Position numbers: made by a program. Below are positions 36,801 through 42,800 of a DNA stretch of 64,000 bases, in pieces; the first letter of the stretch is position 1; every line of letters starts with the position of its first letter. The stretch lies in assembly GCF_057098645.1 (NCBI RefSeq), contig NZ_CM169472.1, one strand, 5' to 3'.

Positions 36801-39800
36801 TGCTGACACAAACGCTACAAACCCGACAACCGACCTTGACGCACCGTGCAGACGATCTGTTTCTCTGGCAACGCGACCCGTTATTACACTTACTTGCATC
36901 TAACGGCTGCGAATCTGCGCTCCTGATACCGCTTACCTTTGGCAACCATACACCGGGTGCATTGTTGCTGGCGCATACCTCTTCCACTCTCTTTAGTGAG
37001 GAAAACTGCCAGCTACTACAACACATAGCCGATCGCATCGCTATTGCCGTTGGCAATGCCGATGCCTGGCGTAGCATGACCGATTTGCAGGAAAGTTTGC
37101 AGCAAGAAAACCACCAGCTTAGCGAGCAGCTCCTTTCGAATCTGGGCGTCGGTGACATTATCTATCAAAGCCAGGCAATGGAAGACCTGCTCCAGCAGGT
37201 AGATATTGTGGCGAAGAGCGACAGTACGGTGTTGATTTGCGGTGAAACCGGAACTGGCAAAGAGGTGATCGCCAGAGCGATCCATCAACTTAGCCCGCGA
37301 CGCGACAAGCCGCTGGTCAAAATCAACTGCGCTGCCATCCCCGCCAGTCTTCTGGAAAGTGAGTTATTCGGTCATGACAAAGGGGCGTTTACTGGTGCGA
37401 TTAATACCCATCGTGGTCGTTTTGAAATTGCCGATGGCGGCACGTTGTTTCTCGATGAAATTGGCGATCTGCCGTTAGAACTTCAGCCTAAACTGCTGCG
37501 CGTATTGCAGGAGCGGGAGATTGAGCGTCTCGGCGGGAGTAGAACGATCCCGGTGAATGTCAGAGTCATTGCCGCCACCAACCGTGATTTGTGGCAAATG
37601 GTTGAAGATCGCCAGTTTCGCAGCGATCTCTTTTATCGCCTGAATGTCTTCCCACTGGAATTGCCGCCGCTACGCGACCGTCCGGAAGATATCCCTCTTT
37701 TAGCAAAACATTTCACGCAAAAAATGGCGCGCCATATGAATCGCGCAATTGACGCCATCCCGACTGAGGCACTACGCCAGTTGATGTCGTGGGATTGGCC
37801 GGGCAACGTGCGCGAGCTGGAAAACGTGATTGAGCGGGCGGTACTGCTGACTCGCGGTAACAGTCTGAATTTACATCTTAATGTCCGACAAAGCCGTTTA
37901 CTGCCGACGCTAAATGAAGATTCAGCGCTTCGCAGTTCAATGGCGCAGTTGCTGCACCCGACGACGCCAGAGAATGACGAAGAAGAACGTCAGCGCATTG
38001 TTCAGGTATTGCGAGAAACCAATGGCATTGTTGCCGGGCCCCGTGGCGCGGCGACACGATTAGGGATGAAGCGCACCACGCTGCTGTCACGAATGCAGCG
38101 TCTGGGGATCTCGGTTCGCGAGGTGTTGTAATCTGCTTTTGCAGGAGTATGCATGAGAAACAAACTCTCTTTCGACTTGCAGTTGAGCGCCAGAAAAGCG
38201 GCAATCGCTGAACGGATTGCCGCCCATAAAATTGCCCGCAGTAAAGTGTCGGTCTTTTTAATGGCGATGTCCGCTGGCGTGTTTATGGCGATTGGATTTA
38301 CTTTTTACCTTTCCGTTATCGCCGATGCCCCGTCTTCACAGGCATTAACCCATCTGGTGGGCGGCCTTTGCTTTACACTCGGCTTTATTTTGCTGGCGGT
38401 TTGCGGCACCAGCCTGTTCACCTCGTCGGTAATGACGGTGATGGCAAAAAGTCGGGGCGTTATTAGTTGGCGAACTTGGCTGATTAACGCACTTCTGGTG
38501 GCCTGCGGTAATCTGGCAGGTATTGCCTGTTTCAGTTTGTTAATCTGGTTTTCCGGGCTGGTGATGAGTGAAAACGCGATGTGGGGAGTCGCGGTTTTAC
38601 ACTGCGCCGAGGGCAAAATGCATCATACATTTACTGAATCTGTCAGCCTCGGCATTATGTGCAATCTGATGGTTTGCCTGGCGCTGTGGATGAGTTATTG
38701 CGGGCGTTCATTATGCGACAAAATCGTCGCCATGATTTTGCCCATCACCCTGTTTGTCGCCAGTGGCTTTGAGCACTGTATCGCCAATTTGTTTGTGATT
38801 CCGTTCGCCATTGCCATTCGCCATTTTGCCCCCCGTTACTTTATTCGTACCCCTTATAATGGGGTGTTAGCCAGCCAGACCCGGCATGATTACTGCCCCC
38901 AGTCGTCCATGATCCGGGGGGTGATGTCACCGGGTCTGGTGGGGCGCTGGTAACCGCTAATAGGGGTCAGGTCAGGCACTTTTGCCGGGACCGTCTGTAA
39001 CGTGGATGCCGGTACCTGCTCCCCGTGGTTATCTGGTTAACCCATATACAAGGGAGACAGAATGACCGAATCCAGCGATTACGAATCCGTCCAGGTCTTT
39101 ATCGGCGTTGATGTCGGTAAAGATACGCATCACGCTGTAGCCATTAATCGTTCAGGTAAACGCCTGTTCGATAAAGCATTACCCAACGACGAAAACAAAC
39201 TCAGGTCGCTAATATCTGACCTGAAACAACATGGTCAGATACTGCTGGTTGTTGATCAGCCAGCTACCATCGGTGCGTTACCTGTCGCCGTTGCCCGCTC
39301 AGAAGGAGTCCTTGTCGGATACCTCCCTGGACTGGCCATGCGCCGCATAGCCGACTTACACGCCGGTGAAGCTAAAACTGATGCTCGTGACGCTGCCATC
39401 ATTGCCGAAGCTGCCCGTACCCTGCCTCACGCGCTACGCACGCTGAAACTGGCTGACGAGCAAATCGCCGAACTCTCCATGCTCTGCGGCTTCGATGATG
39501 ATCTTGCCGCACAGACAACGCAGGCCAGCAACCGTATCCGCGGCCTTCTGACCCAGATACATCCGGCACTGGAGCGCGTTCTCGGTCCGAGACTTGATCA
39601 CCCGGCGGTACTCGATCTTCTCCAGCGATATCCCTCACCAGAAAAACTCGCTTCGCTGGGTGAGAAGAAGCTGGCAGCCCAGCTCTGCAAACTTGCGCCT
39701 CGTCTGGGTAAACGCCTTGCAGCAGACATAGCTCAGGCACTGGCCGAACAAACCGTCGTCGTTCCCGGCACGAATGCCGCTGCCGTAGTACTGCCACGTC

Positions 39801-42800
39801 TGGCACTCCAGCTCATCACGCTGCGTAAGCAAAGAGACGAGGTGGCGCTTGAGGTAGAACAGCGAGTTCTTGCTCACCCTCTTTACCCGGTCCTGACCAG
39901 TATGCCCGGAGTCGGTGTCAGGACCGCAGCCAGACTCCTCACCGAGGTCGCCTGCCGCGCCTTCGCCTCTGCCGCACATCTCGCTGCTTATGCTGGCCTT
40001 GCGCCGGTAACTCGGCGATCCGGCTCGTCAATACGCGGTGAGCATCCCTCGCGACGGGGTAATAAAGCTCTCAAACGGGCGTTGTTCCTGTCGGCCTTCG
40101 CCGCGCTCAGGGATCCGCTCTCCAGGGCTTACTACACCCGCAAAATGAGTCAGGGAAAACGACACAATCAGGCGCTTATCGCCCTGGCGAGACGACGCTG
40201 CGACGTTCTGTTCGCCATGATGCGCGACGGGACTTTTTATACCCCGCAGGCGTCATAACATGCTTGACAACTTAATAGGGGCACCCCCCTTCTGGCAACT
40301 GGCGCACAGTAGCGCAGACAATTTTCCTGCACTGACGGTCAGCCATTTTATTACCGCCAATCTGCTCCCGGTGATGCTGGGTAATATTATCGGCGGTGCA
40401 GTGCTGGTGAGTATGTGTTATCGGGCTATTTATTTACGTCAGGAATCCTGAAAAATCAGCCCGGCGAAACAGTTCGTCGGGCTGAAGATTATTCTTGCGC
40501 TATTTGCCCATCGGGCCAGGCGTGGATCACGGCTTTGATCAGCGTCGCCAATGGAATGGCGAAGAATACGCCCCAGAATCCCCACAAACCACCGAAGATC
40601 ACCACCGATAAAATAATCACCAGCGGATGCAGGTTAACCGCTTCGGAGAACAACACCGGTACTAACAGATTGCCGTCAAGCGCCTGAATAATCAGATACA
40701 CCGCGAAACAGCTCCAGAATTCAGTGCCTGCACCAAACTGGAATAGCGCCACGCCAACCACCGGAATGGTCACCACAAATGCGCCAATGTACGGAATAAG
40801 TACCGAGAAGCCGACCAGCACCGCCAGCAGCAGCGAATAGTTCAGCCCAAAGAGCAAGAACCCCAGCCAGGTGGCGATCCCCACCACGATCATCTCCAGC
40901 ACTTTGCCGCGGATATAGTTGGTGATTTGTTGATTCATCTCCTTCCACACCTGTCCTGCCAGTCCACGGTTGCGCGGCAGCACCCGACGAACGGCGTTCA
41001 GCATCTGCTCTTTGTCTTTCAGCAGGAAGAAGACCATCAATGGCACCAGCACCAGATAGACGGCTATGGTCAGCAAACCGACCAGCGAGGCGAGGGAAAT
41101 TTTCACCACCGAATCGCCCATGGTCAGCATCCGACTGCGCATATTTTCGGCCATTGCATCAATAATGCCCGCATCCATTAACGCCGGATAGCGGCGCGGC
41201 AACGTGGCGGCAAAGTCAGAAAGCTTATTGAGCATCCCCGGCATATCGCGGATTAAGTAGATGCCCTGTTGCCAGGCGATAGGCAGTACCACGAACGCCA
41301 TCAGTAGCAATATACCGACGAAAACCACCAATACAATCGACGTCGCCCAGCGGCGGGAGCAGCCAATAGATTGCAGGCGCACGGTTGGCCATTCCAGCAA
41401 ATAGGCCAGCACAATAGCCACCAGCAACGGAGCAAGCAGGCCACTAAAGAAAAAGATAATGCCAAATCCGGCAACTAAAATAACCAGCAAGGCAATCGCT
41501 TCCGGGTCGCTAAAACGGCGGCGATACCATTGCATCAACATTTCGAGCATAAAGACCTTCCCTGAACCTCAAGAGCGGGATTGCGATCAGCAATTGTATC
41601 GAAATGTCACAAAAAAGACTTCGCTTTTTATGACGGATTCAGGAAACTGAAAAGTCATTTGAGTGGGCTAATCTTCGCCGTTACACTCAAAGGCGGCGCG
41701 GTGGGAACGATATTTCACAGTATCGGTCAAATGACTATCTTCAGAAATACAGGATAGAGGTTATGTTCAGGCAGTTGAAAAAAAACCTGGTTGCAACCCT
41801 CATTGCTGCTATGACCATTGGTCAGGTAGCCCCGGCATTTGCCGACAGCGCAGACACCTTGCCGGATATGGGAACCTCCGCAGGAAGCACGCTTTCCATT
41901 GGTCAGGAAATGCAGATGGGCGACTATTATGTCCGCCAGCTACGCGGCAGCGCGCCGTTAATTAATGACCCGCTGTTAACGCAATATATTAATTCGCTGG
42001 GGATGCGTCTGGTTTCGCATGCCAATTCGGTTAAGACACCGTTTCATTTTTTTCTGATCAACAACGACGAAATTAACGCCTTTGCTTTCTTTGGCGGCAA
42101 CGTGGTGCTGCACTCTGCCCTGTTCCGTTATTCCGATAACGAAAGTCAACTGGCTTCAGTTATGGCGCACGAAATCTCCCACGTCACCCAACGTCACCTG
42201 GCGCGAGCGATGGAAGATCAGCAGCGCAGCGCGCCGCTGACCTGGGTCGGCGCGTTAGGTTCTATTTTACTGGCGATGGCCAGTCCGCAGGCGGGGATGG
42301 CGGCGCTGACCGGTACACTGGCGGGAACGCGTCAGGGGATGATCAGTTTCACCCAGCAAAATGAACAGGAAGCGGACCGCATTGGTATTCAGGTGCTGCA
42401 ACGCTCGGGATTCGATCCGCAGGCGATGCCAACCTTCCTCGAAAAATTACTCGATCAGGCGCGTTACTCCTCGCGCCCGCCGGAAATTTTACTGACTCAC
42501 CCGTTGCCGGAAAGTCGTCTGGCAGATGCCCGCAACCGTGCTAATCAGATGCGCCCGATGGTGGTGCAGTCGTCGGAAGATTTCTATCTGGCGAAAGCGC
42601 GCACACTGGGGATGTATAATTCCGGACGTAACCAGCTCACCAGTGATTTGCTGGATGAATGGGCGAAAGGAAACGTTCGTCAGCAACGAGCAGCACAATA
42701 TGGTCGTGCTTTACAGGCGATGGAAGCCAATAAATACGACGAGGCGCGTAAAACGCTGCAACCGTTACTGGCGGCAGAACCTGGCAACGCATGGTATCTC

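What the first reader, a model, noticed from the sequence alone, without database searches (positions are those of the whole stretch)
38834..40283. IS110-family element inserted in a poly-C tract of focB
The FNT formate-channel gene focB is split: the 5' part reads to ...IRHFAP, then about 1.45 kb of foreign DNA carrying one DEDD/IS110-type transposase, then focB resumes in frame (PPFWQLAHSS...). Summing the two focB parts gives 281 to 282 codons, consistent with the length I remember for intact FocB, so this is a simple insertion with no deletion. The organisation (long non-coding left end, transposase ending about 25 bp from the right end, no terminal inverted repeats, no clear target duplication) is the IS110 signature. 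The target is a run of C residues, which is not the REP target used by IS621.
Basis: partly seen in the sequence, partly recalled or inferred. Interest (0 to 1): 0.65.

Follow-up and report, generated by a model that had tools for sequence, protein, structure and literature searches.

The report
Known ISEc20 insertion splitting focB
The formate-channel gene focB in this E. coli O145:H28-type chromosome is cut in two by one intact copy of ISEc20, a catalogued IS110-family (bridge-RNA-guided) insertion sequence that habitually lands in runs of C, so the finding is real but ordinary and already annotated in public genomes.

Summary
Confirmed and already known. Window 38834-40283 is an intact ISEc20, an IS110-family element in the ISEc20/ISSfl4 cluster. 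It is 100% identical to copies that RefSeq annotates under that name. Exactly this focB insertion is annotated in 22 O145 genomes.

The 398-aa protein has both IS110 domains and the catalytic residues of IS621. There are no terminal inverted repeats. The left end is a 228-bp non-coding stretch, and the gene ends 25 bp from the right end.

K-12 focB matches up to and from the C-run on either side, so this is a simple insertion. Across 28 unique ISEc20 sites the target is an oligo-C run, not a REP. The left end folds into a two-loop bridge-RNA-like structure. Its loop sequences read ...CUGCCCCC(A) and GGGGGG(UG), which match that target, and UAAUAGGGG.CA and GUAACGUG, which match the element's own joined ends.

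The exact crossover cannot be fixed inside a homopolymer. It is either donor core CA, giving 1450 bp and an in-frame C11 empty site, or core CC, giving C10.

Strain 300709 carries a second, independent insertion in the same tract.

One point is unexplained: IS-bearing alleles lack the non-C bases that common IS-free alleles have just left of the insertion point.

The parts
38153..38833 (+). focB 5' part (pseudogene fragment), ending in the left target half; 38832-38833 is the CC that I read as the target's core dinucleotide
   Evidence: It matches K-12 focB base for base except for 3 SNPs, up to the C-run. RefSeq annotates it as 'focB, incomplete, missing C-terminus' in RM12581.
38834..40283 (+). 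ISEc20, one complete copy (1450 bp under the preferred reading; the invariant body GTTAC...GGGGCA is 38835-40283)
   Evidence: 100% identity to copies annotated as ISEc20. The ends were defined by comparing 13 fetched copies plus 30 viral-contig copies. No terminal inverted repeats.
38834..39061 (+). Non-coding left end; the candidate bridge RNA lies at about 38848-39014 (a 5' hairpin at 38848-38866, then two stem-internal-loop modules)
   Evidence: MFE -98.3 kcal/mol, z = -2.55. A two-module consensus structure is shared with the Serratia (90%), Ralstonia (72%) and O26 (88%) relatives, with 3 compensatory pairs. Durrant et al. list the ISEc20;ISSfl4 cluster as IS110-group with the ncRNA in the left end. 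No Rfam family matches.
38892..38901 (+). Proposed left target guide (ACUGCCCCCA), on the 5' side of the first internal loop
   Evidence: It reads like the top strand of natural left flanks. G precedes the C-run in 16 of 26 unique sites, p = 9e-5. The Serratia copy sits at ACTGCCCCC|GTTAC. An O26 relative whose guide reads AAUUCCCCC sits after ...AACTCCCC. Inference by analogy with IS621.
38916..38923 (+). Proposed right target guide plus core complement (GGGGGGUG), on the 3' side of the first internal loop
   Evidence: Its reverse complement is CA+CCCCCC. The right flank is exactly C6 followed by a non-C in most sites. Common IS-free alleles read CA/CT/AA followed by C5-6 at the rtcB-family, dgcE, terminase, L026-site and focB sites.
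38958..38969 (+). Proposed left donor guide (UAAUAGGGGUCA), on the 5' side of the second internal loop
   Evidence: [quoted passage not shown] AUAGGGG is conserved in the Ralstonia relative together with its right end ATAGGGGCA. The assignment of its core part is tentative.
38997..39005 (+). Proposed right donor guide (GUAACGUGG), on the 3' side of the second internal loop
   Evidence: GUAACGUG is the exact reverse complement of CA+CGTTAC, the joined right and left ends with one C between them. It is invariant in all relatives, as is the left end GTTAC.
39062..40258 (+). IS110-family recombinase gene (398 aa; D17, D65, D107, D110 and S320 align with the IS621 catalytic residues)
   Evidence: Pfam PF01548 plus PF02371. 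NCBIfam NF033542, 239 bits. The C-terminal domain aligns to IS621 (8wt6, E = 1.2e-14) and to ISCro4; KTDARDA and RSGSSIRG align with KTDTVDA and ESGSSVRG.
40259..40283 (+). Right end. It holds a perfect -35 hexamer TTGACA (40264-40269) facing outward, and ends in GGGGCA; 40282-40283 (CA) is read as the donor core
   Evidence: Read from the sequence. In the joined circle, TTGACA-N18-TACTTT would form a junction promoter; this is inference only. The tool finds no promoter in the integrated state.
40284..40451 (+). focB 3' part; 40284-40289 (CCCCCC) is the right target half
   Evidence: It matches K-12 focB from the C6 run to the stop. RefSeq annotates it as 'formate/nitrite transporter family protein, missing N-terminus'.

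Best explanation
The block at 38834-40283 is one intact copy of ISEc20, an IS110-family insertion sequence that ISfinder places in the same cluster as ISSfl4. It has inserted, in the same orientation as the gene, into the Pro-Pro-Pro C-run of focB and inactivated it.

By homology with IS621 it most likely moves as follows; these steps are inferred, not shown here. The element excises or copies out as a circle whose joined ends read ...TAATAGGGG-CA-CGTTAC.... A non-coding bridge RNA of about 165 nt is made from the left end. One of its internal loops pairs with the joined ends. The other pairs with a chromosomal site of the form (C)TG-C(n)-C[A/C]-CCCCCC. The DEDD/serine recombinase then exchanges strands at a dinucleotide core.

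In the integrated copy the target's core (CC) stays at the left junction and the donor's core (CA) stays at the right junction. That is what IS621's top-strand cut, placed 3' of the core, would produce. The poly-C target is therefore written in the element's own RNA. That is why ISEc20 is found in C-runs all over E. coli and its prophages, and why focB has been hit twice independently.
For: Shown here:
- The copy is 100% identical to RefSeq-annotated ISEc20 copies. The element is present in 1462 of 5426 complete E. coli genomes.
- The identical focB::ISEc20 locus occurs in 23 genomes and is annotated as such.
- Domains and catalytic residues are as expected.
- K-12 focB is continuous across the site.
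- The ends are invariant and there are no inverted repeats.
- The target logo is a C-run, with core and right half nearly invariant.
- Relatives at 90% (Serratia) and 72% (Ralstonia) identity keep the same loop sequences, the same ends and the same C-run target.
- The two-module RNA fold has compensatory pairs.
- The guide readings match the natural sites. The common allele of an rtcB-family gene, ACTGCCC-CA-CCCCCC, matches the RTG reading 8 of 8 and the LTG reading nearly perfectly.
- Right ends are joined to CGTTAY and left ends are preceded by GCAC at several independent loci. These joints mimic the one-C donor junction.
- At three phage sites the commonest IS-free allele is one C shorter than the sum of the junction runs: C7 in 58 of 63, C8 in 7 of 13, and C9.

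From the literature:
- Bridge-RNA architecture and strand polarity (PMC11208160).
- Cleavage positions and handshake guides (PMC11208158).
- The ISEc20;ISSfl4 cluster is listed as IS110-group with its ncRNA in the left end.
Against: - No RNA, circle or activity was observed here, and Rfam has no matching family.
- The loop sequences are low-complexity (C5 and G6), and the minimum-energy fold pairs them with each other. Their match to a C-run target is weaker evidence than a complex guide would give.
- The relatives keep the same guides, so there is almost no guide-target covariation to test. The only example is one O26 relative whose guide has U for G and whose flank has T for G.
- The handshake-guide positions fit a CC core with two C between the ends better than the CA core. 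In that reading UG would pair with donor CA (applied).
- IS-free alleles two C shorter than the junction sum also exist: C6 (5 of 63), C7 (4 of 13), and C8 in strain C325.
- A tandem pair of copies has four C between them, which fits neither reading.
- Junction run lengths differ between assemblies of the same insertion (L022 versus L050).
- No sigma-70 promoter is detected in the integrated state.
Confidence: 0.9

Rival explanations
1. Same element, but the recombination core is CC and the circle junction is GGGGCA-CC-GTTAC, so the element is 1451 bp with a 2-nt apparent duplication. The pre-insertion focB tract would then have been C10. focB would already have been frameshifted, or would have lost one C afterwards, and precise excision would not restore the gene.
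For: - The LTG read as ACUGCCC+CC fits the G-C5|GTTAC sites perfectly (Serratia, L004, L033, L039).
- The 3' side of the target loop reads GGGG-GG-UG. UG is the complement of donor positions 6-7 (CA), exactly where IS621 has its handshake guide.
- IS-free alleles exactly two C shorter exist at the tape-measure, tail-fibre and dgcE sites.
- Strain 300709 (4+6) then implies C8, which is in frame and is seen in strain C325.
Against: - Those IS-free alleles came up as best hits to a deliberately short query, so they are selected for shortness. In unbiased samples they are the minority (C6 in 5 of 63, C7 in 4 of 13) or absent (C8 in 0 of 119).
- The three fetched RE-to-CGTTAY joints, and the further ungapped extensions past the element's ends, all carry one C, not two.
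- The RDG is an ungapped 8-of-8 match only with one C.
- The common IS-free alleles have A or T, not C, just before the C5-6 run.
- The core part of the LDG would be GG opposite CC.
Confidence: 0.33
2. The O145 and strain-300709 focB insertions are one ancestral event spread by descent or by homologous recombination, not two independent hits.
For: Both lie in the same tract and the same orientation, with the same right junction (GGGGCA-C6-TTC).
Against: - The elements differ at 6 of 1449 positions.
- The flanks differ at 6 of 540 positions, including sites 2 nt left and 8 nt right of the tract, so any recombination tract would have to be the IS alone.
- The left C-run is 4 in one and 6 in the other.
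- Only 23 of 5426 genomes carry the insertion.
Confidence: 0.12
3. The 1.45 kb is native focB-adjacent sequence, or an assembly artefact, rather than an insertion.
For: None found.
Against: - focB is continuous in K-12 and in 4271 other genomes.
- The block occurs at dozens of unrelated sites.
- 17 or more independent O145 assemblies are identical across both junctions.
Confidence: 0.01

Closest known systems
ISEc20 / ISSfl4 (ISfinder names, IS110 family, IS110 group), as annotated in RefSeq for STEC O145, O111, O103, O26 and E. coli Nissle 1917 genomes, and for Shigella flexneri plasmids
   Same: The nucleotide sequence is 100% identical to ISEc20 copies and 99.4% to ISSfl4 copies. The ends, the 398-aa protein (WP_001358663.1) and this very focB locus are the same.
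   Different: Nothing in the element itself differs. I found no paper that describes its target preference or its bridge RNA. Only 6 relevant papers mention either name, and none in that context.
IS621 (E. coli), the characterised bridge-RNA recombinase (PMC11208160, PMC11208158; PDB 8wt6)
   Same: The two-domain recombinase and its catalytic residues. The non-coding RNA in the left end, with a target loop and a donor loop. Each loop reads one strand on its 5' side and the other strand on its 3' side. A dinucleotide core. No inverted repeats.
   Different: The proteins are only distantly related: the RuvC-like part aligns at 2.5 bits and the Tnp part at 54 bits, and the lengths are 398 versus 326 aa. 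The target is an oligo-C run instead of the REP-derived ATCGGGCCTACGCA type. The core is CA or CC instead of CT. The right target guide is longer (6 nt or 4+2). The homopolymer guides allow register slippage.
IS1111-group elements (IS4321/IS5075, ISPa11, etc.; seekRNA)
   Same: They belong to the same IS110 superfamily and use RNA-guided site choice.
   Different: Those carry the guide RNA at the right end and have short sub-terminal inverted repeats. Here the non-coding RNA region is at the left end, and no inverted repeats were found.

Membership tests
IS110 family (IS110 group) | N-terminal DEDD (RuvC-like) transposase domain | tested here: met
   Pfam PF01548, E = 1.4e-48, full length 1-155. 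D17, D65 (in the place of IS621 E60), D107 and D110 align with the IS621 catalytic residues.
IS110 family (IS110 group) | C-terminal Tnp domain (Transposase_20) with the catalytic serine | tested here: met
   PF02371, E = 3.7e-21. RSGSSIRG aligns with ESGSSVRG of IS621; S320 corresponds to S241 and G321 to G242.
IS110 family (IS110 group) | No terminal inverted repeats; no, or only a 2-nt, flanking repeat | tested here: met
   The best of 13 registers gives 16 of 40 matches between the ends. The junctions share only C residues. The net gain over IS-free alleles is 1-2 nt.
IS110 family (IS110 group) | Long non-coding left end that encodes a bridge RNA with a target-binding and a donor-binding loop | tested here: inconclusive
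   The 228-bp left end has a conserved two-module fold with 3 compensatory pairs in 4 sequences, and its loop sequences match the target and the ends. There are no expression data, no Rfam model exists, and the guides are low-complexity. Published listing of the cluster as left-end type.
IS110 family (IS110 group) | Sequence-specific target choice | tested here: met
   In 28 unique sites the core and right half are C at 23-28 of 28 positions, and the position after the run is non-C in 25 of 28. The same target type is seen in the Serratia and Ralstonia relatives.
IS110 family (IS110 group) | Circular intermediate with a promoter assembled across the joined ends | not testable with these tools
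   Sequence only: a perfect TTGACA lies 14 nt from the right end, and TACTTT in the left end would lie 18 nt downstream in the circle. No circle junction was found in assemblies. The only head-to-tail pair has CCCC between the copies.
ISEc20 (ISfinder isoform criterion: about 95% or more nucleotide / 98% or more protein identity) | Near-identity to the named element over its whole length | tested here: met
   100% over 1450 nt to many copies that RefSeq labels ISEc20. The ISfinder reference entry itself could not be consulted.
IS621-like REP-targeting elements | Insertion into REP sequences at a CT core | tested here: not met
   The target is an oligo-C run inside coding sequence, and the core is CC/CA.

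The most novel reading that the evidence does not exclude
ISEc20 may not leave its natural targets unchanged. At six IS-bearing sites the allele lacks, just left of the element, the non-C bases (A or T) that the common IS-free alleles carry. These are focB in O145, focB in strain 300709, dgcE, an rtcB-family gene, a phage terminase and one further prophage site (the L026 site).

Rare IS-free alleles with pure or nearly pure C tracts exist at the same places. They are often frameshifted or exactly 3 nt shorter. They include both the focB and the rtcB sites in strain C325, the closest IS-free relative of the O145 lineage.

One reading is that insertion at imperfect targets, or cycles of insertion and mis-registered excision in a homopolymer, converts or deletes mismatched bases in the 4-nt strand-exchange overlap. 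This would leave poly-C 'scars' that are in turn better targets. The alternative is that the element only ever lands in rare pre-existing pure-C variants.
Probability: 0.2. Interest if true: 0.55.

Novelty: already known. Interest (0 to 1): 0.15.

Why it matters
For this genome the meaning is modest. focB, the second formate channel at the end of the hyf (hydrogenase-4) operon, is a pseudogene in the O145:H28 lineage because of a catalogued mobile element. The insertion is a usable lineage marker.

More generally, ISEc20 is a natural bridge-recombinase system whose guide is a homopolymer. That explains its scatter through C-runs in prophage and chromosomal genes. It also makes ISEc20 a convenient natural case for asking how register slippage and core mismatches are resolved in RNA-guided recombination. 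The junction anomalies recorded here would bear on that question if they proved real.

Tried and rejected
(1) Rfam scan of 38500-40600 at E <= 1 found nothing.

(2) A promoter scan of the integrated element found none.

(3) My first boundary model was a CC core with a 2-nt duplication. It rested on IS-free alleles taken from the top of BLAST rankings. I later saw that ranking against a short composite query selects the shortest alleles. Unbiased pattern scans of viral contigs showed that those alleles are the minority, so the model was demoted to a rival.

(4) I looked for guide-target covariation in relatives through viral contigs, E. coli genomes and plasmids. The relatives found keep the same guides and the same target, so no real covariation test was possible.

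(5) I searched for a circle or tandem junction. The only head-to-tail pair has four C between the copies and fits neither model.

(6) I tried to explain the missing non-C bases by conservative recombination. I used every combination of core position, top- or bottom-strand daughter, and the 4-nt overlap known for IS621. No single scheme fits all the sites.

(7) The 61-nt left-end fragment inside Rz genes looked like a possible abortive product. It is a copy truncated by an IS3-family element.

(8) The 31 extra bases in one RM12581 copy are an internal tandem duplication and say nothing about the junction.

(9) A viral-contig scan for the L012 site found nothing.

The caps on annotated-region fetches, viral scans and the metagenome scan were all reached.

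
Full report
**1. What is in the window**

hyfR (36116-38131) is followed by focB, which starts at 38153. Its reading frame runs into foreign sequence after ...IRHFAP. K-12 focB (849 nt) matches the window from its first base up to a C-run that ends at 38834, apart from three SNPs. It matches again from the C-run 40284-40289 through the stop at 40451. yfgO follows on the minus strand, as in K-12.

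The intervening block carries one long ORF, 39062-40258 (+), 398 aa. It is preceded by 228 bp without an ORF of its own and followed by 25 bp.

**2. Identity of the block**

The 1450 bases are 100% identical to elements that RefSeq annotates as 'IS110-like element ISEc20 family transposase'. The element occurs in 1462 of 5426 complete E. coli genomes, with up to 9 places per genome.

A 2-kb query spanning both junctions is matched in full by 23 genomes. Twenty-two are O145 or O145:H28-type strains, 17 of them at 100% identity. The other is strain 300709. In RM12581 the locus is annotated as focB pseudogene, then the ISEc20 transposase WP_001358663.1, then a second focB fragment. So the window comes from an O145:H28-type chromosome, and the finding is already in the public annotation.

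The protein has Pfam DEDD_Tnp_IS110 (1.4e-48) and Transposase_20 (3.7e-21). It passes NCBIfam NF033542, 'IS110 family RNA-guided transposase', at 239 bits against a cut-off of 140. Its C-terminal domain aligns with the solved IS621 and ISCro4 recombinases. KTDARDA and RSGSSIRG lie opposite the IS621 catalytic D102/D105 and S241/G242.

Plasmid copies labelled ISSfl4 in Shigella are 99.4% identical. The supplement of Durrant et al. lists 'ISEc20;ISSfl4' as one cluster of the IS110 group with its non-coding RNA in the left end.

**3. Ends and target**

I compared 13 fetched copies, 30 viral-contig copies and the window. The invariant body is GTTAC...GGGGCA (38835-40283, 1449 bp). It always has at least 3 C to its left and CCC to its right. 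The ends are not inverted repeats.

In 28 unique complete sites the two bases before GTTAC, and the six bases after GGGGCA, are almost always C. The seventh base is non-C in 25 of 28. G precedes the left C-run in 16 of 26 sites (p = 9e-5). A 90%-identical Serratia copy and a 72%-identical Ralstonia copy have the same ends and also sit in C-runs.

The poly-C target is thus the rule for this element and not a peculiarity of focB. It is not a REP.

**4. How it most likely works**

The published basis is as follows. IS110 elements use a bridge RNA from the non-coding end. [quoted passage not shown] IS621 cuts the top strand 3' of the core, cuts the bottom strand four positions to the left, and uses handshake bases next to the core complement (PMC11208158).

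In ISEc20 the left end folds into a 5' hairpin followed by two stem/internal-loop modules. The fold is shared by four relatives, with three compensatory pairs.
- The first loop carries ACUGCCCCCA on its 5' side and GGGGGGUG on its 3' side.
- The second loop carries UAAUAGGGGUCA and GUAACGUGG.

The second pair reads the element's own joined ends. TAATAGGGG-CA is the right end. GUAACGUG is the exact complement of CA+CGTTAC. The first pair reads (A)CTG-C(n) on the left and CA-CCCCCC on the right.

That prediction is met by common IS-free alleles:
- an rtcB-family gene reads ACTGCCC-CA-CCCCCC;
- K-12 dgcE reads ...A-CA-CCCCCC;
- a phage terminase reads ...C-CA-CCCCC;
- K-12 focB reads ...C-CT-CCCCCC.

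These steps are inferred from sequence and homology. No RNA or circle was observed, and Rfam has no model for it.

**5. The exact crossover is not resolved**

Reading A. The donor core is CA, with one C between the joined ends. The target core CC is kept at the left junction and the donor core CA at the right, as IS621's top-strand geometry predicts.

Evidence for reading A:
- The commonest IS-free allele at three phage sites is one C shorter than the junction sum: C7 in 58 of 63, C8 in 7 of 13, and C9 with C8 absent.
- At several independent loci the right end is joined to CGTTAY, or the left end is preceded by GCAC. These joints mimic a one-C junction.
- The RDG match is ungapped.
- The common alleles carry A or T before the C-run.

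Reading B. The core is CC, with two C between the ends.

Evidence for reading B:
- The handshake position fits: UG would pair with donor CA.
- The register of the LTG fits.
- IS-free alleles two C shorter than the junction sum exist. These were, however, picked by a ranking biased towards short alleles.

Neither reading explains a tandem pair with four C between the copies. Run lengths differ by one between assemblies of the same insertion. I put about 0.6 on reading A and 0.33 on reading B.

**6. Consequence for focB**

The window has 6 C left and 6 C right of the body. Under reading A the empty site is G-C11-TTC. That is in frame, encodes APPPF as in K-12, and differs from the K-12 tract CCCCTCCCCCC by a synonymous T-to-C change. 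Under reading B the empty site is C10, one nucleotide short.

One caveat stands either way. None of 56 metagenomic focB contigs has a pure-C tract. The alleles found were CCCCTACCTCC (28), CCCCTCCCCCC (24), CCCCTCCCCCCC (3) and CCCCAACTCCC (1).

**7. A second hit in the same tract**

Strain 300709 has ISEc20 in the same place and the same orientation. But its element differs at 6 positions, its flanks differ at 6 of 540 positions, and its left run has 4 C instead of 6. I read this as an independent insertion. The focB Pro-Pro-Pro tract is therefore a recurrent natural target.

**8. What remains unexplained**

At focB (both events), dgcE, the rtcB-family gene, the terminase site and the L026 site, the IS-bearing allele lacks the A or T that common IS-free alleles carry within a few bases left of the crossover. 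The right flank is as expected.

Rare IS-free alleles with pure or nearly pure C tracts exist at the same sites:
- dgcE C7 and C8, both annotated as frameshifted;
- terminase C9 and C10;
- strain C325, which is the closest IS-free relative of the O145 lineage at both loci. It has C8 in focB and CCCCGCCC in the rtcB-family gene, each 3 nt shorter than the common allele and annotated as intact.

Conservative recombination cannot remove bases, and no scheme I tried fits all the sites. Three explanations remain open. The element may land only in rare pure-C variants. Insertion and excision in a homopolymer may leave scars. Or homopolymer slippage and assembly error may blur the picture. I record this as an open observation, not a claim.

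**9. Verdict**

The finding is real, correctly located and correctly interpreted. It describes a catalogued element at a locus already annotated in more than twenty public genomes. Novelty: already known. Interest is low. The only thing of wider interest is the junction anomaly in section 8, which needs experiments or read-level data.

Noticed in passing
L013 (NZ_CP025903.1, strain 300709), focB locus; corresponds to window 38828-40290: A second ISEc20 sits in the same focB C-run and the same orientation. The element differs at 6 positions, the flanks differ at 6 of 540 positions, and the left run is C4 instead of C6. It looks like an independent insertion, so the tract is a recurrent target.
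   Followed up: partly
L015 and L364 (NZ_CP124819.1, strain C325): C325 is the closest IS-free relative of the O145 lineage at two ISEc20 sites. Its focB tract is C8 and its rtcB-family tract is CCCCGCCC. Each is 3 nt shorter than the common 11-nt allele, and both genes are annotated as intact. These could be ancestral target alleles or excision scars.
   Followed up: partly
window 38829-38834 and 40284-40289; L089-L144, L001, L016: The 11-nt focB tract that encodes residues 227-229 is unusually variable between strains whose flanks are otherwise nearly identical. Alleles seen: CCCCTACCTCC, CCCCTCCCCCC, CCCCACGCCCC, CCCCAACTCCC and C8. The protein reads APTSF, APPPF or APRPF accordingly.
   Followed up: partly
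L017, L018, L019, L145 (dgcE) versus L006: K-12 dgcE reads CCAGA-ACACCCCCC-AACAG. The ISEc20-bearing allele, and three IS-free genomes from different hosts, have a pure C7 or C8 tract there and are annotated as frameshifted.
   Followed up: partly
L027, L032, L051 right junctions; hits H194-H196 and H237-H239 (call numbers 75, 78, 93): At several independent loci the ISEc20 right end is followed by CGTTAC or CGTTAT, a mimic of the element's own left end, instead of a C-run. L027 shares its left flank with the ordinary insertion L026. This suggests rearrangements through pseudo-donor sites read by the donor loop.
   Followed up: partly
L342 (NZ_CP024616.1, plasmid pO177B1) 390-3292: Two complete ISEc20 copies lie head to tail, separated by CCCC, with outer runs of C3 and C6. 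The same arrangement is present in a sister plasmid and in a chromosome of strain SMN197SH3.
   Followed up: partly
L014 (NZ_CP007136.1, RM12581) IS position 1405: One of the 8 copies in RM12581 has a 31-bp internal tandem duplication near the 3' end of the transposase gene. The annotated ORF is longer there (WP_025404271.1).
   Followed up: yes
L084 (NZ_CP028116.1, O26 RM8426) 2501-3503: A truncated relative, 88% identical, lies next to iha. It is present in about 135 genomes. Its target-loop guide reads AAUUCCCCC instead of ACUGCCCCC, and its left flank reads ...AACTCCCC. This is the only hint of guide-target covariation that I found.
   Followed up: partly
L085 (NZ_CP051700.1) 401-461 and similar hits H144-H148: A 61-nt solo left end of ISEc20 lies within an Rz spanin gene. 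It is cut off just before the C5 of the guide by an IS3-family element, and it recurs in many genomes.
   Followed up: yes
L088 (p14EC017c) 1501-1845 and about 900 plasmids: A degenerate fragment about 74% identical to the ISEc20 left end and the start of its transposase gene lies beside ompT on IncF/ColV-type plasmids. Part of it is annotated as 'outer membrane protease'.
   Followed up: no
window 40264-40269: A perfect -35 hexamer TTGACA lies 14 nt inside the right end and points outward towards the focB 3' fragment. It could form a promoter with the left end in a circle. No matching -10 is present in the focB flank.
   Followed up: partly
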